DNA of 64,000 nucleotides from a virus. The notes under the pieces were generated by a model, which had not been told where the DNA came from, searched no databases, and saw nothing but the letters and a program-made list of their open reading frames with translations. Positions 17,693 to 20,885 of the stretch are shown here, one piece after another (within the stretch, counting starts at the first letter, position 1; each line of letters starts with the position of its first letter). Made by a program: the position numbers and the translations under genes. The stretch lies in the IMG/VR virus record IMGVR_UViG_3300037606_000137, positions 46,381-110,380 of that record. The stretch is one strand, 5' to 3'.

Positions 17693-18097
17693 ATGGACGT
17701 TTTCCTTGGTGGTACATGTAATAATTCTGAATGGAGAGATGAATTAATACCTTTATTAAATTGTGATTATTTTAATCCTGTTGTAGATGATTGGACAGAA
17801 GATGCACAAAAATTAGAATTACAAAAACGCATAGAATGTGATTTTGTGCTTTATGTAATAACACCAAAAATGACTGGTGTGTATTCATTAGTCGAAGCTA
17901 CAGATGATTCAAATAAGAGACCACAAAGAACTATATTTTGTGTTCTTACAAATGATGATGGTAACGAATTTACAGAATCACAATTAAAGTCATTAGAAAT
18001 GACAAAAAATTTAATTAGAAATAATAATGCTAGAGTTTTTGATACGTTACAAGATATTGCAAGTTTTTTAAATTATATGAATTTGGTACCAAATTAA
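17693..18097 (+). CDS. Nucleoside 2-deoxyribosyltransferase-like protein
   Basis: VFLGGTCNNSEWRDELIP...FNPVVDDWT...GVYSLVE. Confidence 0.75.
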   Translation: MDVFLGGTCNNSEWRDELIPLLNCDYFNPVVDDWTEDAQKLELQKRIECDFVLYVITPKMTGVYSLVEATDDSNKRPQRTIFCVLTNDDGNEFTESQLKSLEMTKNLIRNNNARVFDTLQDIASFLNYMNLVPN

Positions 18098-18335: not shown

Positions 18336-18431
18336 AAAATAAATAAAAATTTTTATATATCAAAATAAATTCTTATATTTGTTTTGTAAAAGTAAAAAGG
18401 GAAGAAAAAAAATTAATATATACAATTAAGA

Positions 18432-18591
18432 ATGAAAAATTTATCAAACATATTAGTGGATCGTTATTATGATCGTGAACCGGAGAGATTACTTGGGACT
18501 AACAATGTTATGTGTAAATTTTAATTATTAAAAAGATATTAAATTTTTAAACAAATAACTGAAAAGTCCCTTAGCAATAAGGGACTTTTTT
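18432..18591 (+). promoter_or_regulatory. Putative attenuator 1: leader ORF 18432..18524 (MKNLSNILVDRYYDREPERLLGTNNVMCKF) with antiterminator and terminator ahead of the tRNA cluster
   Basis: GGGACT (18495..18500) is complementary to AGTCCC in the 5' arm of the terminator. Leader codons match the downstream tRNAs. Confidence 0.7.
18562..18591 (+). terminator. Intrinsic terminator 14 nt before tRNA-Glu
   Basis: AAAAGTCCCTTA-GCAA-TAAGGGACTTTT followed by T residues. Confidence 0.9.
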
Positions 18592-18605
18592 ATTTTAAAT
18601 CATAT

Positions 18606-18677
18606 GCTCCTATCGTCTAACGGTCAGGACTCTACCTTTTCAAGGTAGCAATGAGAGTTCGATTCTCTCTGGGAGTA
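18606..18677 (+). tRNA. tRNA-Glu(TTC)
   Basis: Acceptor GCTCCTA/TGGGAGT, anticodon arm CTACC-TTTTCAA-GGTAG, T arm GAGAG-TTCGATT-CTCTC. Confidence 0.92.
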
Positions 18678-18759
18678 CAAAAAATAAATTGTAGTGTACA
18701 ATAGGTGAAATTTGTATATGAATGGTAAGACAGCTCGAGACTGTATTTATTTTTTTTAA

Positions 18760-18839
18760 CTAGATGCTTGAGCAGTTGGTTGAACTCGCCTGTTTTGGGA
18801 ACAGGAGCATTTGCGTAGGTTCGAATCCTACCATCTAGA
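18760..18839 (+). tRNA. tRNA-Pro(TGG), atypical D/variable region
   Basis: Acceptor CTAGATG/CATCTAG, anticodon arm CCTGT-TTTGGGA-ACAGG, T arm GTAGG-TTCGAAT-CCTAC. Confidence 0.85.
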
Positions 18840-19035
18840 CATAAATTATTGATAACAAACAAGTTACAATAAAAAATATATTTACTAGTAATGTTTAGTA
18901 AATTAAAGATAATAGTTGGATAATGAAAATATGAGCTGTAACTTGTATAATAGTAATTATAAGCTAGAATATAGAAATGATATAATATTTAAGTATTATT
19001 ACAGTAAGAAAGAATTAAATTGAATTGAAGTATTT

Positions 19036-19110
19036 TTTATGTGTGGTGTAATTGGATAGGCACGCTTGCGTTGAGTGAGTAGATTATTGGTTCGAATCCA
19101 ATACATGAAA
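19036..19110 (+). tRNA. Degenerate tRNA-like element, identity unresolved
   Basis: Acceptor TTTATGT/ACATGAA, D arm GTGT-AATTGGATAG-GCAC and a perfect T arm, but an abnormal anticodon arm. Confidence 0.5.
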
Positions 19111-19120
19111 CAAAAAATAA

Positions 19121-19191
19121 GGTCCATTGGTGAAATGGTATCATGACTCACTGTCTATGAGTTGTCGTCGGATCGTAACCGGCATGGACCG
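19121..19191 (+). tRNA. tRNA-Asp(GTC)
   Basis: Acceptor GGTCCAT/ATGGACC, anticodon arm ACTCA-CTGTCTA-TGAGT, variant T loop ATCGTAA. Confidence 0.85.
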
Positions 19192-19217
19192 CTAAAGAAA
19201 CAAAAATAATAAAATAA

Positions 19218-19290
19218 GGTCCTGTAGCACAATTGGTAGTGTAACTTGTTGTCTGCGAGATGGTTGACGGTTCGAATCCGTTCAGGACCG
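19218..19290 (+). tRNA. tRNA-Asp(GTC), second divergent copy
   Basis: Acceptor GGTCCTG/CAGGACC, anticodon loop TTGTCTG, T arm GACGG-TTCGAAT-CCGTT. Confidence 0.82.
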
Positions 19291-19386
19291 CAATAAACTG
19301 AGTTAGTGTACTACAAGTTCGAAACTTGTGATCTTGACAAAAAAAAATTAAAAAAGATGAAAAAAATAATAGTAAATAAAAATGTA

Positions 19387-19506
19387 ATGATAAGTGTAAG
19401 AAATATTTCTTATTCATATTATTATAACTTATTGAAATCTCAATGAGACTGAAATTGTATTTTAACAAATTTTAAGTCCTATTGAGAAATCAGTAGGACT
19501 TTTTTT
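19387..19506 (+). promoter_or_regulatory. Putative attenuator 2: Tyr-rich leader ORF 19387..19446 (MISVRNISYSYYYNLLKSQ) with antiterminator and terminator directly before tRNA-Tyr
   Basis: TCTCAATGAGACT (19438..19450, contains the leader stop) pairs at 12 of 13 positions with AGTCCTATTGAGA of the terminator 5' arm and loop. Confidence 0.8.
19474..19506 (+). terminator. Intrinsic terminator 4 nt before tRNA-Tyr
   Basis: AAGTCCTATTGA-GAAA-TCAGTAGGACTT plus T-run. Confidence 0.9.
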
Positions 19507-19510
19507 ATAA

Positions 19511-19553
19511 CCGACAGTATGCAAGTGGTTAAAGCAGGGGGATTGTAAATCCT
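19511..19553 (+). tRNA. tRNA-Tyr(GTA), 5' part of an interrupted gene
   Basis: CCGACAG acceptor strand, D arm TGC-AAGTGGTTAAA-GCA, anticodon arm GGGGA-TTGTAAA-TCCT. Confidence 0.85.
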
Positions 19554-19598
19554 GTTACAGTCAATTCGAATTTAATATATAAAGATAAAAAACTATAT

Positions 19599-20138
19599 AT
19601 GTGTGATTTGAAAAAATGTGAAAATTGTGATAACGATCATAATGGTGATTATGGAAGTGGAAGATTCTGTTCGAATAAATGTGCTAGAGGATTCTCAACC
19701 AAAAATAAACGAAAAGAAATAAATAAAAAAGTAAGTAATACATTACAGTTAAAATTAAATAATGGATTAACAACACAACAAGTAATACAAAAAAAATATG
19801 CAGCTAAACACGCTTCTTATATTAGAGAAACTGAAATAACTACATTATATGATTTAAGTACACGTACAATAAGTAAAATATTAAAAAGATTAAAATTACC
19901 ATGTTCATTATGTAAATGGTATGTTGAAGATGTTGTTGGTGATTTACATCATATAATAGAAAGAAAAAATGGTGGTTCAAACAATCATGATAATTTAACA
20001 TATGTATGTCCTAATTGTCATAGATTAATTCATTCTAATAAAATAGATAATAGTAAAATAATAAATCTTAAAGATTATATTGGTGACGAATGGAAAAAAT
20101 ATTATTATGTAATCAATAAAAAATTAATAAACAAATAA
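19599..20138 (+). CDS. HNH endonuclease inserted in tRNA-Tyr
   Basis: CSLC...HHIIERKNGGSNNHDNLTYVCPNCHRLIH and an N-terminal Zn motif (RFCSNKCA); TAATATATA box at 19573. Confidence 0.9.
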   Translation: MCDLKKCENCDNDHNGDYGSGRFCSNKCARGFSTKNKRKEINKKVSNTLQLKLNNGLTTQQVIQKKYAAKHASYIRETEITTLYDLSTRTISKILKRLKLPCSLCKWYVEDVVGDLHHIIERKNGGSNNHDNLTYVCPNCHRLIHSNKIDNSKIINLKDYIGDEWKKYYYVINKKLINK

Positions 20139-20142
20139 TTTG

Positions 20143-20185
20143 TTCTCTTCGGAGTTCGTAAGTTCAAATCTTACCTGTCGGACCA
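20143..20185 (+). tRNA. tRNA-Tyr, 3' part with encoded CCA
   Basis: Variable arm CTC-TTCG-GAG, T arm GTAAG-TTCAAAT-CTTAC, then CTGTCGG-A-CCA, perfectly complementary to CCGACAG at 19511. Confidence 0.88.
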
Positions 20186-20351
20186 CAACAATTTTAAGTT
20201 GTACTTCTAATTTTATTAAATTAAAACATAAATATGTTGATGTATTTTTGTTTTAATTTTTTTGTTTATATAATTGTATTCATAACAATTTAAACAAAGT
20301 TAAACAATTCATATATAATACTATAGAAAATATAGTAAATATAGTAAAGCT

Positions 20352-20885
20352 ATGGGAACAATAAAAGATTATATACAAGAAAGAATAACATTAAATCATT
20401 TACCTTTAAATATTAATGAATGTTTAGCTGTTATAGAAACATATGAAACAATATATTCTAATGTTTCAGAGAAAGAACGTTTTTTTTTATTTATCAAAAA
20501 TAAAGTTGGAGAAATACTAACAAATATTGATGAAGATTTGTCTGAAATTTTAGGATGGTTACATGTACATAAAAGTAAACAAGATATAGTTTATTTTTTA
20601 TTTGAAACCGAAGAAGATTATTATAATTGGTTAAGTGTTCGTAAAGATTTATATTTACAATTAAATGAAGATTACACAAGATTATTAAATTTTTTAGAAT
20701 TATCGACTATGGATTTCATTTCTGATATAACTACTAATTGTAATTATATCTTAGAATTAAAAAATAAAAAAACAGATTTTAAAAAAGAAGGATATGGTGT
20801 TGATGTTGAATCAACAATATCATTCATTAAATACTTAGGTGCATCATTTAAAAAAGGATATAACTTTAAACCAACAAAAATATGA
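20352..20885 (+). CDS. Hypothetical protein
   Basis: 177-aa ORF, ATGA-coupled to the next gene. Confidence 0.6.
   Translation: MGTIKDYIQERITLNHLPLNINECLAVIETYETIYSNVSEKERFFLFIKNKVGEILTNIDEDLSEILGWLHVHKSKQDIVYFLFETEEDYYNWLSVRKDLYLQLNEDYTRLLNFLELSTMDFISDITTNCNYILELKNKKTDFKKEGYGVDVESTISFIKYLGASFKKGYNFKPTKI

What the first reader, a model, noticed from the sequence alone, without database searches (positions are those of the whole stretch)
19387..19510. Tyr-sensing attenuator directly upstream of tRNA-Tyr
Leader MISVRNISYSYYYNLLKSQ* carries four TAT codons within five positions. Its stop codon lies inside TCTCAATGAGACT (19438..19450), which pairs at 12 of 13 positions (one G-U, one mismatch) with AGTCCTATTGAGA in the terminator arm and loop. 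A ribosome reaching the stop would mask the antiterminator and allow termination. One stalled at the Tyr run, which ends 12 nt upstream, would leave it free. There is no room for a promoter in the 4 nt between the terminator and the tRNA. Caveat: TAT is common in AT-rich DNA, so the geometry is what carries the argument.
Basis: partly seen in the sequence, partly recalled or inferred. Interest (0 to 1): 0.9.

Follow-up and report, generated by a model that had tools for sequence, protein, structure and literature searches.

The report
Tyrosine-codon attenuator gating phage tRNA-Tyr
A tiny tyrosine-rich "test" gene, wired to a switchable transcription stop, sits directly in front of a large phage's tyrosine tRNA gene, so the phage probably transcribes that tRNA only when ribosomes read tyrosine codons slowly; it is one of three codon-matched switches in this genome, I found no paper describing this control for tRNA genes, and the tRNA gene here is itself interrupted by a selfish HNH nuclease gene.

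Summary
The evidence is computational only.

- **Leader ORF:** it runs 19357/19387-19446 and carries four TAT codons in five positions.
- **RNA helices:** its 3' end forms a 1:2 hairpin (19428-19447). Region 2 can instead pair with the terminator's 5' arm as an antiterminator (-15.7 kcal/mol, p<0.001 against shuffles). The terminator is a 12-bp GAAA-loop hairpin plus T7 (-16.0 kcal/mol) that ends 4 nt before tRNA-Tyr.
- **Spacing:** it fits trp-type ribosome-mediated attenuation.
- **Same genome:** two more elements have the same layout. One leader spells only K, N, F, H and W ahead of the tRNA genes Trp-Asn-Phe-His-Lys-Lys. The other (DRYYDREPE) precedes Glu-Pro-Gln-Asp-Asp. It is conserved in a relative with compensatory stem changes, and the Tyr element is its paralogue.
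- **Other phages:** in 17 terminator-before-tRNA cases, leader composition matches the downstream tRNAs (0 of 5000 permutations reach the observed score).
- **Caveats:** the gated tRNA-Tyr is split by a 588-bp HNH cassette with no recognisable intron. No orthologue of this element and no expression data could be obtained.
- **Earlier work:** this scan noted the same kind of element in at least 50 other genomes. My literature searches found no paper on it.

The parts
19357..19446 (+).
   Evidence: The upstream context is A-rich and has no Shine-Dalgarno sequence, like 97 of 99 long ORFs of this genome.
19411..19425 (+). Control codons: TAT TCA TAT TAT TAT (Y S Y Y Y)
   Evidence: The leader ranks in the top 0.2% of 1146 small ORFs for Tyr enrichment. 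Genome-wide, 25 distinct windows have at least 4 Tyr codons in 5.
19428..19447 (+). Hairpin 1:2 (protector): region 1 at 19428-19435, loop 19436-19439, region 2 at 19440-19447. It includes the leader stop codon.
   Evidence: RNAfold, -6.9 kcal/mol; present in the minimum-energy fold of the whole leader.
19438..19450 (+). 5' strand of the antiterminator (2:3), complementary to 19475-19487
   Evidence: Duplex -14.3 kcal/mol, p about 0.0005 against shuffles. The 2:3 fold of 19437-19489 is -15.7 kcal/mol.
19451..19473 (+). Small spacer hairpin nested inside the antiterminator
   Evidence: RNAfold.
19474..19506 (+). Intrinsic terminator (3:4): 12-bp stem, GAAA loop, T7 tail
   Evidence: -16.0 kcal/mol.
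19511..19556 (+). tRNA-Tyr(GTA), 5' part: acceptor strand, D arm, anticodon arm. It ends in the TGTT repeat.
   Evidence: Partial Rfam tRNA match of 14.7 bits.
19557..20144 (+). 588-bp insert carrying the HNH endonuclease ORF 19599-20138. It is flanked by TGTT on both sides, so the junction is ambiguous within 4 nt.
   Evidence: Pfam HNH, E = 2e-7. 542 relatives. No group I or group II intron model matches.
20145..20185 (+). tRNA-Tyr, 3' part: variable-arm hairpin, T arm, acceptor strand, A73, encoded CCA
   Evidence: Joining 19556 to 20145 gives an 87-nt class II tRNA-Tyr(GTA) in ARAGORN.
18432..18605 (+). Companion attenuator E2: 30-codon leader 18432-18524 with D-R-Y-Y-D-R-E-P-E, GGGACT at 18495-18500 complementary to the terminator arm, terminator 18561-18590, then tRNA Glu-Pro-Gln-Asp-Asp (18606-19291)
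   Evidence: Orthologue in L046. Paralogy with the Tyr element.

Best explanation
The stretch 19357-19510 is a ribosome-mediated (leader-peptide) transcription attenuator that senses how fast Tyr codons are decoded. It gates transcription from the upstream tRNA operon into the tRNA-Tyr gene.

Inferred mechanism:
1. RNA polymerase coming from the Glu-Pro-Gln-Asp-Asp tRNA genes transcribes the leader, and a ribosome starts on its A-rich 5' end.
2. If Tyr-tRNA is plentiful, the ribosome runs to the TGA inside region 2 and covers roughly 19432-19458. Region 3 then pairs with region 4 and transcription stops at the T7 run.
3. The same happens with no translation, because region 1 pairs with region 2.
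4. If the ribosome stalls with one of the last TAT codons in its A site, it covers region 1 (19428-19435) but not region 2. Region 2 then pairs with region 3 before region 4 is made, the terminator cannot form, and polymerase reads into tRNA-Tyr.
5. The output would be homeostatic: more phage tRNA-Tyr when Tyr decoding is slow, and shut-off once it recovers.

In this genome the gated gene is now interrupted by an HNH cassette, so read-through also transcribes that nuclease gene. Whether a working tRNA results is unknown.

What is shown: the sequence anatomy, the energies, the statistics and the comparative pattern. What is inferred: translation, termination and the response to Tyr-tRNA supply.
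For: **Anatomy**
- The ORF, the four TAT codons, the stop inside region 2, the terminator and the 4-nt gap to the tRNA are all present.

**Alternative helices**
- Energies are 1:2 -6.9, 2:3 -15.7 and 3:4 -16.0 kcal/mol.
- Antiterminator complementarity has p about 0.0005 against shuffles, and 0 of about 3000 natural segments reach it.

**Spacing**
- The last TAT codon ends 2 nt before region 1 and 12 nt before the antiterminator strand. The stop codon lies inside region 2.

**Codon enrichment**
- The leader is in the top 0.2% of 1146 small ORFs for Tyr.

**Family in the same genome**
- E1 lies at G000 29080-28936 on the minus strand. All 15 of its leader residues 2-16 fall in {K,N,F,H,W}, ahead of the tRNA genes Trp-like, Asn, Phe, His, Lys and Lys. 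That is the only such window among 82,295 stop-free 15-mers of the six-frame translation.
- E2 precedes Glu-Pro-Gln-Asp-Asp.
- All three have GNRA-loop terminators 4-15 nt before a tRNA, and antiterminator p values of 0.02, about 0.03 and <0.001.

**Paralogy**
- The Tyr element aligns with E2, including a 15-nt identical run with the L046 copy across the antiterminator strand. Its control codons have been rewritten to Tyr only.

**Orthologue of E2 in L046**
- The 27 nt of control codons are identical, GGGACT is kept, and two stem pairs are changed in a compensatory way.

**Other phages**
- Leaders match clusters in these examples:

| Locus | Leader residues | Downstream tRNAs |
|---|---|---|
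| L080 | NLYLYLLL | Tyr, Leu x3 |
| L084 | QRWHR | Trp, His, Arg x3, Gln |
| L139 | YLNILENLLLNDY | Leu, Asn, Asp, Tyr |
| L140 | TYKKFYYK | Tyr |

- L140 has an antiterminator of -18.9 kcal/mol with p<0.002.
- Permuting tRNA sets among the 21 cases gives 53.5 observed against 25.5 +/- 4.4.
- Leaving out this genome and L046 gives 37.5 against 19.9 +/- 3.8, with 0 of 5000 permutations reaching it.
- Antiterminator complementarity is significant in the codon-matched cases and absent in the unmatched ones.

**Start context**
- The genome does not use Shine-Dalgarno sequences (2 of 99 long ORFs), so the A-rich leader start is typical for it.
Against: - No orthologue of this particular element was found, so there is no covariation for its own helices.
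- There are no expression or termination data.
- The element has no promoter of its own. It depends on read-through from the upstream tRNA genes, and translation would have to start on a tRNA precursor transcript.
- The gated tRNA-Tyr is split by a 588-bp HNH cassette with no recognisable self-splicing intron. The switch may therefore now be a relic or serve the nuclease gene.
- TAT makes up 4.9% of codons in this 23% G+C genome. A Y-Y-Y run in a short ORF without a terminator lies only 400 nt upstream, at 18994-19002.
- The complementarity between regions 2 and 3 follows from two similar hairpins lying in tandem. A duplication without function could also produce that.
Confidence: 0.7

Rival explanations
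1. The hairpin is a plain terminator that ends the Glu-Pro-Gln-Asp-Asp tRNA operon. The Tyr-rich ORF is a chance product of AT-rich spacer DNA, and the region 2 complement is a by-product of a hairpin duplication.
For: Tyr runs occur 25 times in 110 kb over six frames. TAT is 4.9% of codons. Another Y-Y-Y ORF without a terminator lies nearby. The 1:2 hairpin looks like a diverged copy of the top of the terminator.
Against: The Tyr enrichment ranks in the top 0.2% of small ORFs. The complement has p<0.001. The element is a paralogue of a conserved leader unit. The codon-to-tRNA match recurs in this genome and in 17 independent cases.
Confidence: 0.15
2. The ORF encodes a small protein with its own function, and the hairpin is simply its terminator. 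The match to tRNA-Tyr is incidental.
For: The ORF has a gene-like A-rich start and a strong terminator. Leaders of this kind often begin M-K-N or M-K-K.
Against: The peptides share no sequence across loci except composition, and that composition tracks the downstream tRNAs. tblastn found no match for the E2 leader peptide in 50,697 phage records. A small-protein gene does not explain the antiterminator.
Confidence: 0.05
3. The element is a real attenuator, but it is now a relic or has been re-used. Since the HNH cassette split tRNA-Tyr, read-through yields no working tRNA and mainly controls expression of the homing endonuclease.
For: The tRNA is interrupted at the junction of the anticodon stem and the variable arm. 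The ORF fills the insert and no intron model matches. The HNH ORF starts 88 nt after the terminator.
Against: Both tRNA parts are intact, with a perfect 7-bp acceptor stem and an encoded CCA. The cassette carries its own conserved upstream motifs. Relatives of the cassette sit inside tRNA-Tyr genes in several other contigs, so the split state persists.
Confidence: 0.1

Closest known systems
Leader-peptide attenuators of amino-acid biosynthesis operons (trpL, hisL, pheL, leuL, thrL, ilvL of enterobacteria; textbook knowledge)
   Same: A short ORF with tandem codons for the sensed amino acid; mutually exclusive 1:2, 2:3 and 3:4 helices; an intrinsic terminator; a stop codon placed so that a terminating ribosome masks region 2.
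   Different: The gated genes are tRNA genes, not enzyme genes. The element lies in a phage and inside a tRNA operon with no promoter of its own. It has no sequence similarity to any Rfam leader family.
pheST leader (pheM) attenuator of E. coli phenylalanyl-tRNA synthetase (own knowledge)
   Same: Leader-peptide attenuation applied to a component of the translation machinery for the same amino acid that the leader senses.
   Different: It controls a synthetase protein operon of a bacterium, not the tRNA itself.
T-box riboswitches (own knowledge)
   Same: They sense the state of a specific tRNA pool and switch between a terminator and an antiterminator.
   Different: T-boxes bind uncharged tRNA directly and need no ORF. 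There is no T-box match here.
Phage tRNAs as counter-defence against tRNA-cutting immunity: T5 tRNA-Tyr against Retron-Eco7 PtuAB (PMC11555353); Septu cutting the variable loop of tRNA-Tyr (PMC13096335); PARIS and tRNA-Lys (PMC11464382)
   Same: A phage-encoded tRNA-Tyr supplies a pool that host defences are known to deplete. This gives a plausible reason to sense Tyr decoding.
   Different: The abstracts seen concern tRNA function, not regulation; I did not read the papers in full, and none of my literature searches found demand-sensing control of phage tRNA genes.
Codon-matched leader attenuators before phage tRNA blocks noted earlier in this scan (e1-5402871, e1-5402855, e1-4038560 and others)
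   Same: The same layout and logic, found in at least 50 other genomes according to those notes.
   Different: Those are multi-amino-acid units at the head of tRNA blocks. This one senses a single amino acid, lies inside an operon, and gates a tRNA gene split by an HNH cassette. The notes are unpublished AI notes and are not independent evidence.

Membership tests
Ribosome-mediated (leader-peptide) transcription attenuator | Short ORF with clustered codons for the sensed amino acid | tested here: met
   Four TAT codons in five positions at 19411-19425. Top 0.2% of 1146 small ORFs.
Ribosome-mediated (leader-peptide) transcription attenuator | Intrinsic terminator between the leader and the regulated gene | tested here: met
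   12-bp hairpin plus T7 at 19474-19506, -16.0 kcal/mol. By sequence only.
Ribosome-mediated (leader-peptide) transcription attenuator | Antiterminator mutually exclusive with the terminator and overlapping the end of the leader ORF | tested here: met
   19438-19450 pairs with 19475-19487; -15.7 kcal/mol as a fold; p<0.001 against shuffles.
Ribosome-mediated (leader-peptide) transcription attenuator | Protector (1:2) helix, and spacing that fits a ribosome footprint | tested here: met
   1:2 hairpin at 19428-19447 (-6.9 kcal/mol). Region 1 starts 3 nt after the last TAT codon, and the stop codon lies inside region 2. The footprint sizes are from general knowledge.
Ribosome-mediated (leader-peptide) transcription attenuator | Leader is translated, and termination responds to the supply of charged tRNA | not testable with these tools
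No expression data.
Ribosome-mediated (leader-peptide) transcription attenuator | Conservation or covariation of helices and control codons in relatives | tested here: inconclusive
   No orthologue of this element was found. Its paralogue E2 is conserved in L046 with two compensatory pairs, and the Tyr element aligns with E2.
Rfam leader, T-box and PyrR families | Score at or above the family's gathering threshold | tested here: not met
   Best match is PyrR at 26.7 bits against a threshold of 54 (E = 0.23). No Trp, His, Leu, Thr or Phe leader match and no T-box match.
Intact tRNA-Tyr gene as the regulated target | Continuous cloverleaf called by tRNA finders | tested here: not met
   Not called by ARAGORN or Rfam. 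The cloverleaf appears only after 588 bp are removed.
Group I or group II self-splicing intron (for the insert in tRNA-Tyr) | Match to a ribozyme core model, and room for a core outside the ORF | tested here: not met
   No Rfam intron match at E up to 10. Only 42 nt lie before the ORF and 6 nt after it inside the insert.

The most novel reading that the evidence does not exclude
The phage carries a set of codon-matched attenuators that read host tRNA shortage directly at the ribosome. Such a shortage could arise when defence nucleases cut tRNA-Tyr, as Retron-Eco7 PtuAB and Septu do. The attenuators would then switch on the matching replacement tRNAs on demand. The Tyr unit is a specialised duplicate of a multi-amino-acid unit. 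Its read-through would also induce the HNH homing endonuclease lodged in tRNA-Tyr, coupling activity of the mobile cassette at the tRNA locus to Tyr-tRNA shortage.
Probability: 0.25. Interest if true: 0.9.

Novelty: new variant of a known kind. Interest (0 to 1): 0.82.

Why it matters
Phage tRNA genes are usually treated as constitutive helpers for codon usage or, more recently, as counter-measures against host nucleases that cut tRNAs. A leader-peptide switch in front of them would mean the phage measures decoding speed for particular codons and makes the matching tRNAs only on demand. That extends a textbook mechanism from amino-acid operons to tRNA genes and to viruses.

It also gives a simple sequence signature (leader, antiterminator, terminator, tRNA) for predicting which tRNA pools limit a phage in its host. 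The Tyr element is a clean single-amino-acid case suited to direct testing. tRNA-Tyr is a known target of bacterial immunity (PMC11555353, PMC13096335).

Tried and rejected
**Searches for orthologues of the element**
- An exact pattern from the tRNA-Tyr anticodon arm gave no hit in IMG/VR.
- The flanking proteins 20352-20885 and 17693-18097 have no relatives in IMG/VR.
- The E2 control-codon pattern hits only the L046 contig.
- tblastn with the E2 leader peptide against 50,697 phage records found nothing.
- blastn of 18400-20200 found only tRNA and HNH similarity.
- The look-up by sequence in the scan's own notes found no look-alike.

The many HNH relatives at 60-73% identity therefore could not be placed on their contigs.

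**Ideas rejected**
- The insert as a group I or group II intron: no model match.
- A recoded stop codon: the standard code fits, and TGA ends 12 of 109 long ORFs.
- My first reading, that the leader was chance and the hairpin only an operon terminator: dropped.

**Weak or unresolved leads**
- Host assignment to Bacteroidota: NCBIfam gave no sorting-domain match. Only weak hints remain, namely the absence of Shine-Dalgarno sequences and a TATATTTG box.
- The TAATATATA box as a promoter: 16 and 20 copies per strand against about 14 expected. It is not over-represented, although many copies lie just before gene starts.

**Literature**
- Four searches for leader-peptide control of tRNA genes found nothing relevant.

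Full report
**Source.** The window is part of an IMG/VR virus record of 110,380 bases. CheckV estimates it at 28% complete, so this is a large phage. G+C is 23%. The standard genetic code fits. Only 2 of 99 long ORFs have a Shine-Dalgarno-like sequence. On the + strand lie the tRNA genes Glu, Pro, Gln, Asp and Asp at 18606-19291.

**The observation.**
- The leader ORF runs from ATG 19387 to TGA 19444-19446. An in-frame ATG at 19357 gives 29 codons.
- TAT codons lie at 19411, 19417, 19420 and 19423.
- 19438-19450 pairs with 19475-19487 at 12 of 13 positions. The duplex is -14.3 kcal/mol against -5.9 +/- 1.7 in 2000 dinucleotide shuffles, and none of about 3000 natural segments reached it.
- The terminator is a perfect 12-bp hairpin with a GAAA loop followed by T7.
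- The tRNA acceptor strand starts 4 nt after the T run.

**An addition to the observation.** 19428-19447 is itself a hairpin of -6.9 kcal/mol, and it resembles the top of the terminator. The element therefore has the full 1:2, 2:3, 3:4 layout. The antiterminator (-15.7) and the terminator (-16.0) are about equal in energy. Region 1 begins 3 nt after the last TAT codon, and the stop codon lies inside region 2. A ribosome stalled on the last Tyr codons would cover region 1 and free region 2. A ribosome at the stop codon would cover region 2. With no ribosome, 1:2 and 3:4 both form. This is the trp-type logic. The footprint sizes come from general knowledge.

**Is the Tyr run chance?** Tyr runs are not rare here. 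TAT is 4.9% of codons, there are 25 runs of at least 4 Tyr in 5 codons in 110 kb over six frames, and 3 of 1121 small ORFs have one. Even so, the leader ranks in the top 0.2% of 1146 small ORFs for Tyr. On its own this would be suggestive only.

**What changed my reading.** Earlier notes of this scan pointed to a second leader at the head of the cluster. I then examined every tRNA of the record.
- **E1**, outside the window (G000 minus strand): leader at 29080-29003, terminator at 28967-28936, then the tRNA genes Trp-like (8-nt anticodon loop), Asn, Phe, His, Lys and Lys. Leader residues 2-16 are KNFNKHNNFNFKFWN, so all 15 belong to the five amino acids of the cluster. That window is unique among 82,295 stop-free 15-mers of the six-frame translation.
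- **E2**, window 18432-18605: its leader carries D-R-Y-Y-D-R-E-P-E ahead of Glu, Pro, Gln, Asp and Asp, with Tyr further on. Arg has no tRNA in the cluster.
- All three terminators have GNRA loops and end 4-15 nt before a tRNA. All three have a leader segment complementary to the terminator's 5' arm, with p values of 0.02, about 0.03 and <0.001.

**Relatives.**
- L046 is a true relative of the phage. It has the same small basic protein gene upstream, then the same boxes, leader, GGGACT and terminator, followed by tRNA-Pro and tRNA-Glu.
- The 27 nt of control codons are identical, while the flanks have diverged. Two pairs in the upper terminator stem are changed on both sides.
- The Tyr element aligns with E2. 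It shares a 15-nt identical run with the L046 copy across the antiterminator strand, plus the following A/T block, and its T-A-T codons align with those of E2. It is therefore a duplicate of the E2 module with control codons rewritten to Tyr only and a shortened spacer.
- No orthologue of the Tyr element itself could be found.

**Other phages.** The 164 loci fetched through HNH homologues carry about 1260 tRNA genes.
- Thirty-one tRNAs have a hairpin plus T run ending within 32 nt upstream.
- Many of those are preceded by a short ORF that lists the downstream tRNAs:

| Locus | Leader residues | Downstream tRNAs |
|---|---|---|
| L080 | NLYLYLLL | Tyr, Leu x3 |
| L084 | QRWHR | Trp, His, Arg x3, Gln |
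| L040 | L- and Y-rich | Tyr x2, Leu x3 |
| L139 | YLNILENLLLNDY | Leu, Asn, Asp, Tyr |
| L018 | N-rich | Asn |
| L140 | TYKKFYYK | intact tRNA-Tyr |

- Using a fixed rule for choosing ORFs and locus-specific backgrounds, the summed match score over 21 cases is 53.5. Permuting the tRNA sets among cases gives 25.5 +/- 4.4, with a maximum of 40.8 in 1000 permutations.
- Leaving out this genome and L046 leaves 17 cases, with 37.5 against 19.9 +/- 3.8 and 0 of 5000 permutations reaching the observed value.
- Within each sequence the leaders outrank other small ORFs. The Fisher combined p is about 1e-14.
- Antiterminator complementarity is significant in the codon-matched cases and absent in the unmatched ones, so the two independent features go together.

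**The target gene.** The 'tRNA-Tyr' at 19511 is only the acceptor strand, D arm and anticodon arm. tRNA finders do not call it. The variable arm, T arm, acceptor strand, A73 and CCA lie at 20145-20185. Joining 19556 to 20145 gives an 87-nt class II tRNA-Tyr(GTA). The 588-bp insert is flanked by TGTT and is almost filled by an HNH endonuclease ORF. No intron model matches. No other tRNA-Tyr is present in the 110 kb held. The switch therefore evolved for tRNA-Tyr, but what it delivers now is open.

**Comparison with what is known.** The element works like the enterobacterial leader-peptide attenuators and like the pheST leader. It is not a member of any Rfam leader family. Four literature searches found no account of leader-peptide control of tRNA genes. 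tRNA-Tyr is a known target of Retron-Eco7 PtuAB and of Septu, and phage tRNA-Tyr rescues infection (PMC11555353, PMC13096335). That gives a plausible selective reason for the switch. This scan has noted the same kind of element in at least 50 other genomes. I treated those notes as leads and tested the general claim on my own set of loci.

**Verdict.** The main rival is a plain terminator with a chance ORF (0.15). I class the element as a new variant of a known kind. It has not been tested experimentally. The tools for contig look-up and for sequencing runs were not available.

Noticed in passing
window 19511-20185: tRNA-Tyr(GTA) is split at the junction of the anticodon stem and the variable arm by a 588-bp insert flanked by TGTT. 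The insert is almost wholly an HNH ORF (19599-20138). Both tRNA parts are intact, with a 7-bp acceptor stem starting C1:G72, A73 and an encoded CCA. No group I or group II intron model matches.
   Followed up: partly
L001-L164 (HNH homologue loci): This HNH family lives in phage tRNA arrays. In 97 of 130 distinct loci a tRNA lies within 150 nt, and the nearest is Tyr in 25 of them, although Tyr is only 6% of the tRNAs there. In L085 and L089 the ORF runs into an intact tRNA-Tyr and stops at the TAA of its anticodon loop. In L016/L017, L009 and L011-L013 the ORF sits inside a split tRNA-Tyr. The region upstream of the ORF carries recurring ACTGTA, TTCGAA and TATATA motifs.
   Followed up: partly
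G000:C1 29080-28936, minus strand (outside the window): Attenuator E1: leader residues 2-16 use only K, N, F, H and W. It is followed by a GAAA-loop terminator and then the tRNA genes Trp-like, Asn, Phe, His, Lys and Lys.
   Followed up: yes
window 18370-18605 and L046 2110-2347: Attenuator E2 is conserved between two phages. Both have a TATATTTG box, a TTAATATATA box, identical control codons for D-R-Y-Y-D-R-E-P-E, GGGACT, and a terminator with two compensatory pairs. The three Arg codons have no matching tRNA in the cluster.
   Followed up: yes
G000:C1 28848-28921, minus strand: A tRNA with an 8-nt anticodon loop (anticodon read as ccaa, Trp or Leu by ARAGORN). The E1 leader has one TGG codon.
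   Followed up: no
window 19292-19340: A T-arm-like hairpin (ACAAG-TTCGAAA-CTTGT) right after the second tRNA-Asp, with no complete tRNA around it. It is probably tRNA debris.
   Followed up: no
window 18916-19023: A short ORF ending in F-K-Y-Y-Y-S-K-K lies just before tRNA-Gln without any terminator hairpin. It shows that Tyr runs also arise in this spacer DNA without a switch.
   Followed up: no
window 18841-19035: A 195-nt gap between tRNA-Pro and tRNA-Gln with no tRNA called, even at low ARAGORN thresholds.
   Followed up: partly
L140 2634-2870: An unrelated phage contig has a Tyr-only unit: a leader with T-Y-K-K-F-Y-Y-K, a 21-nt antiterminator strand (-18.9 kcal/mol), a GAAA-loop terminator and an intact tRNA-Tyr, followed by an HNH-related ORF.
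   Followed up: partly
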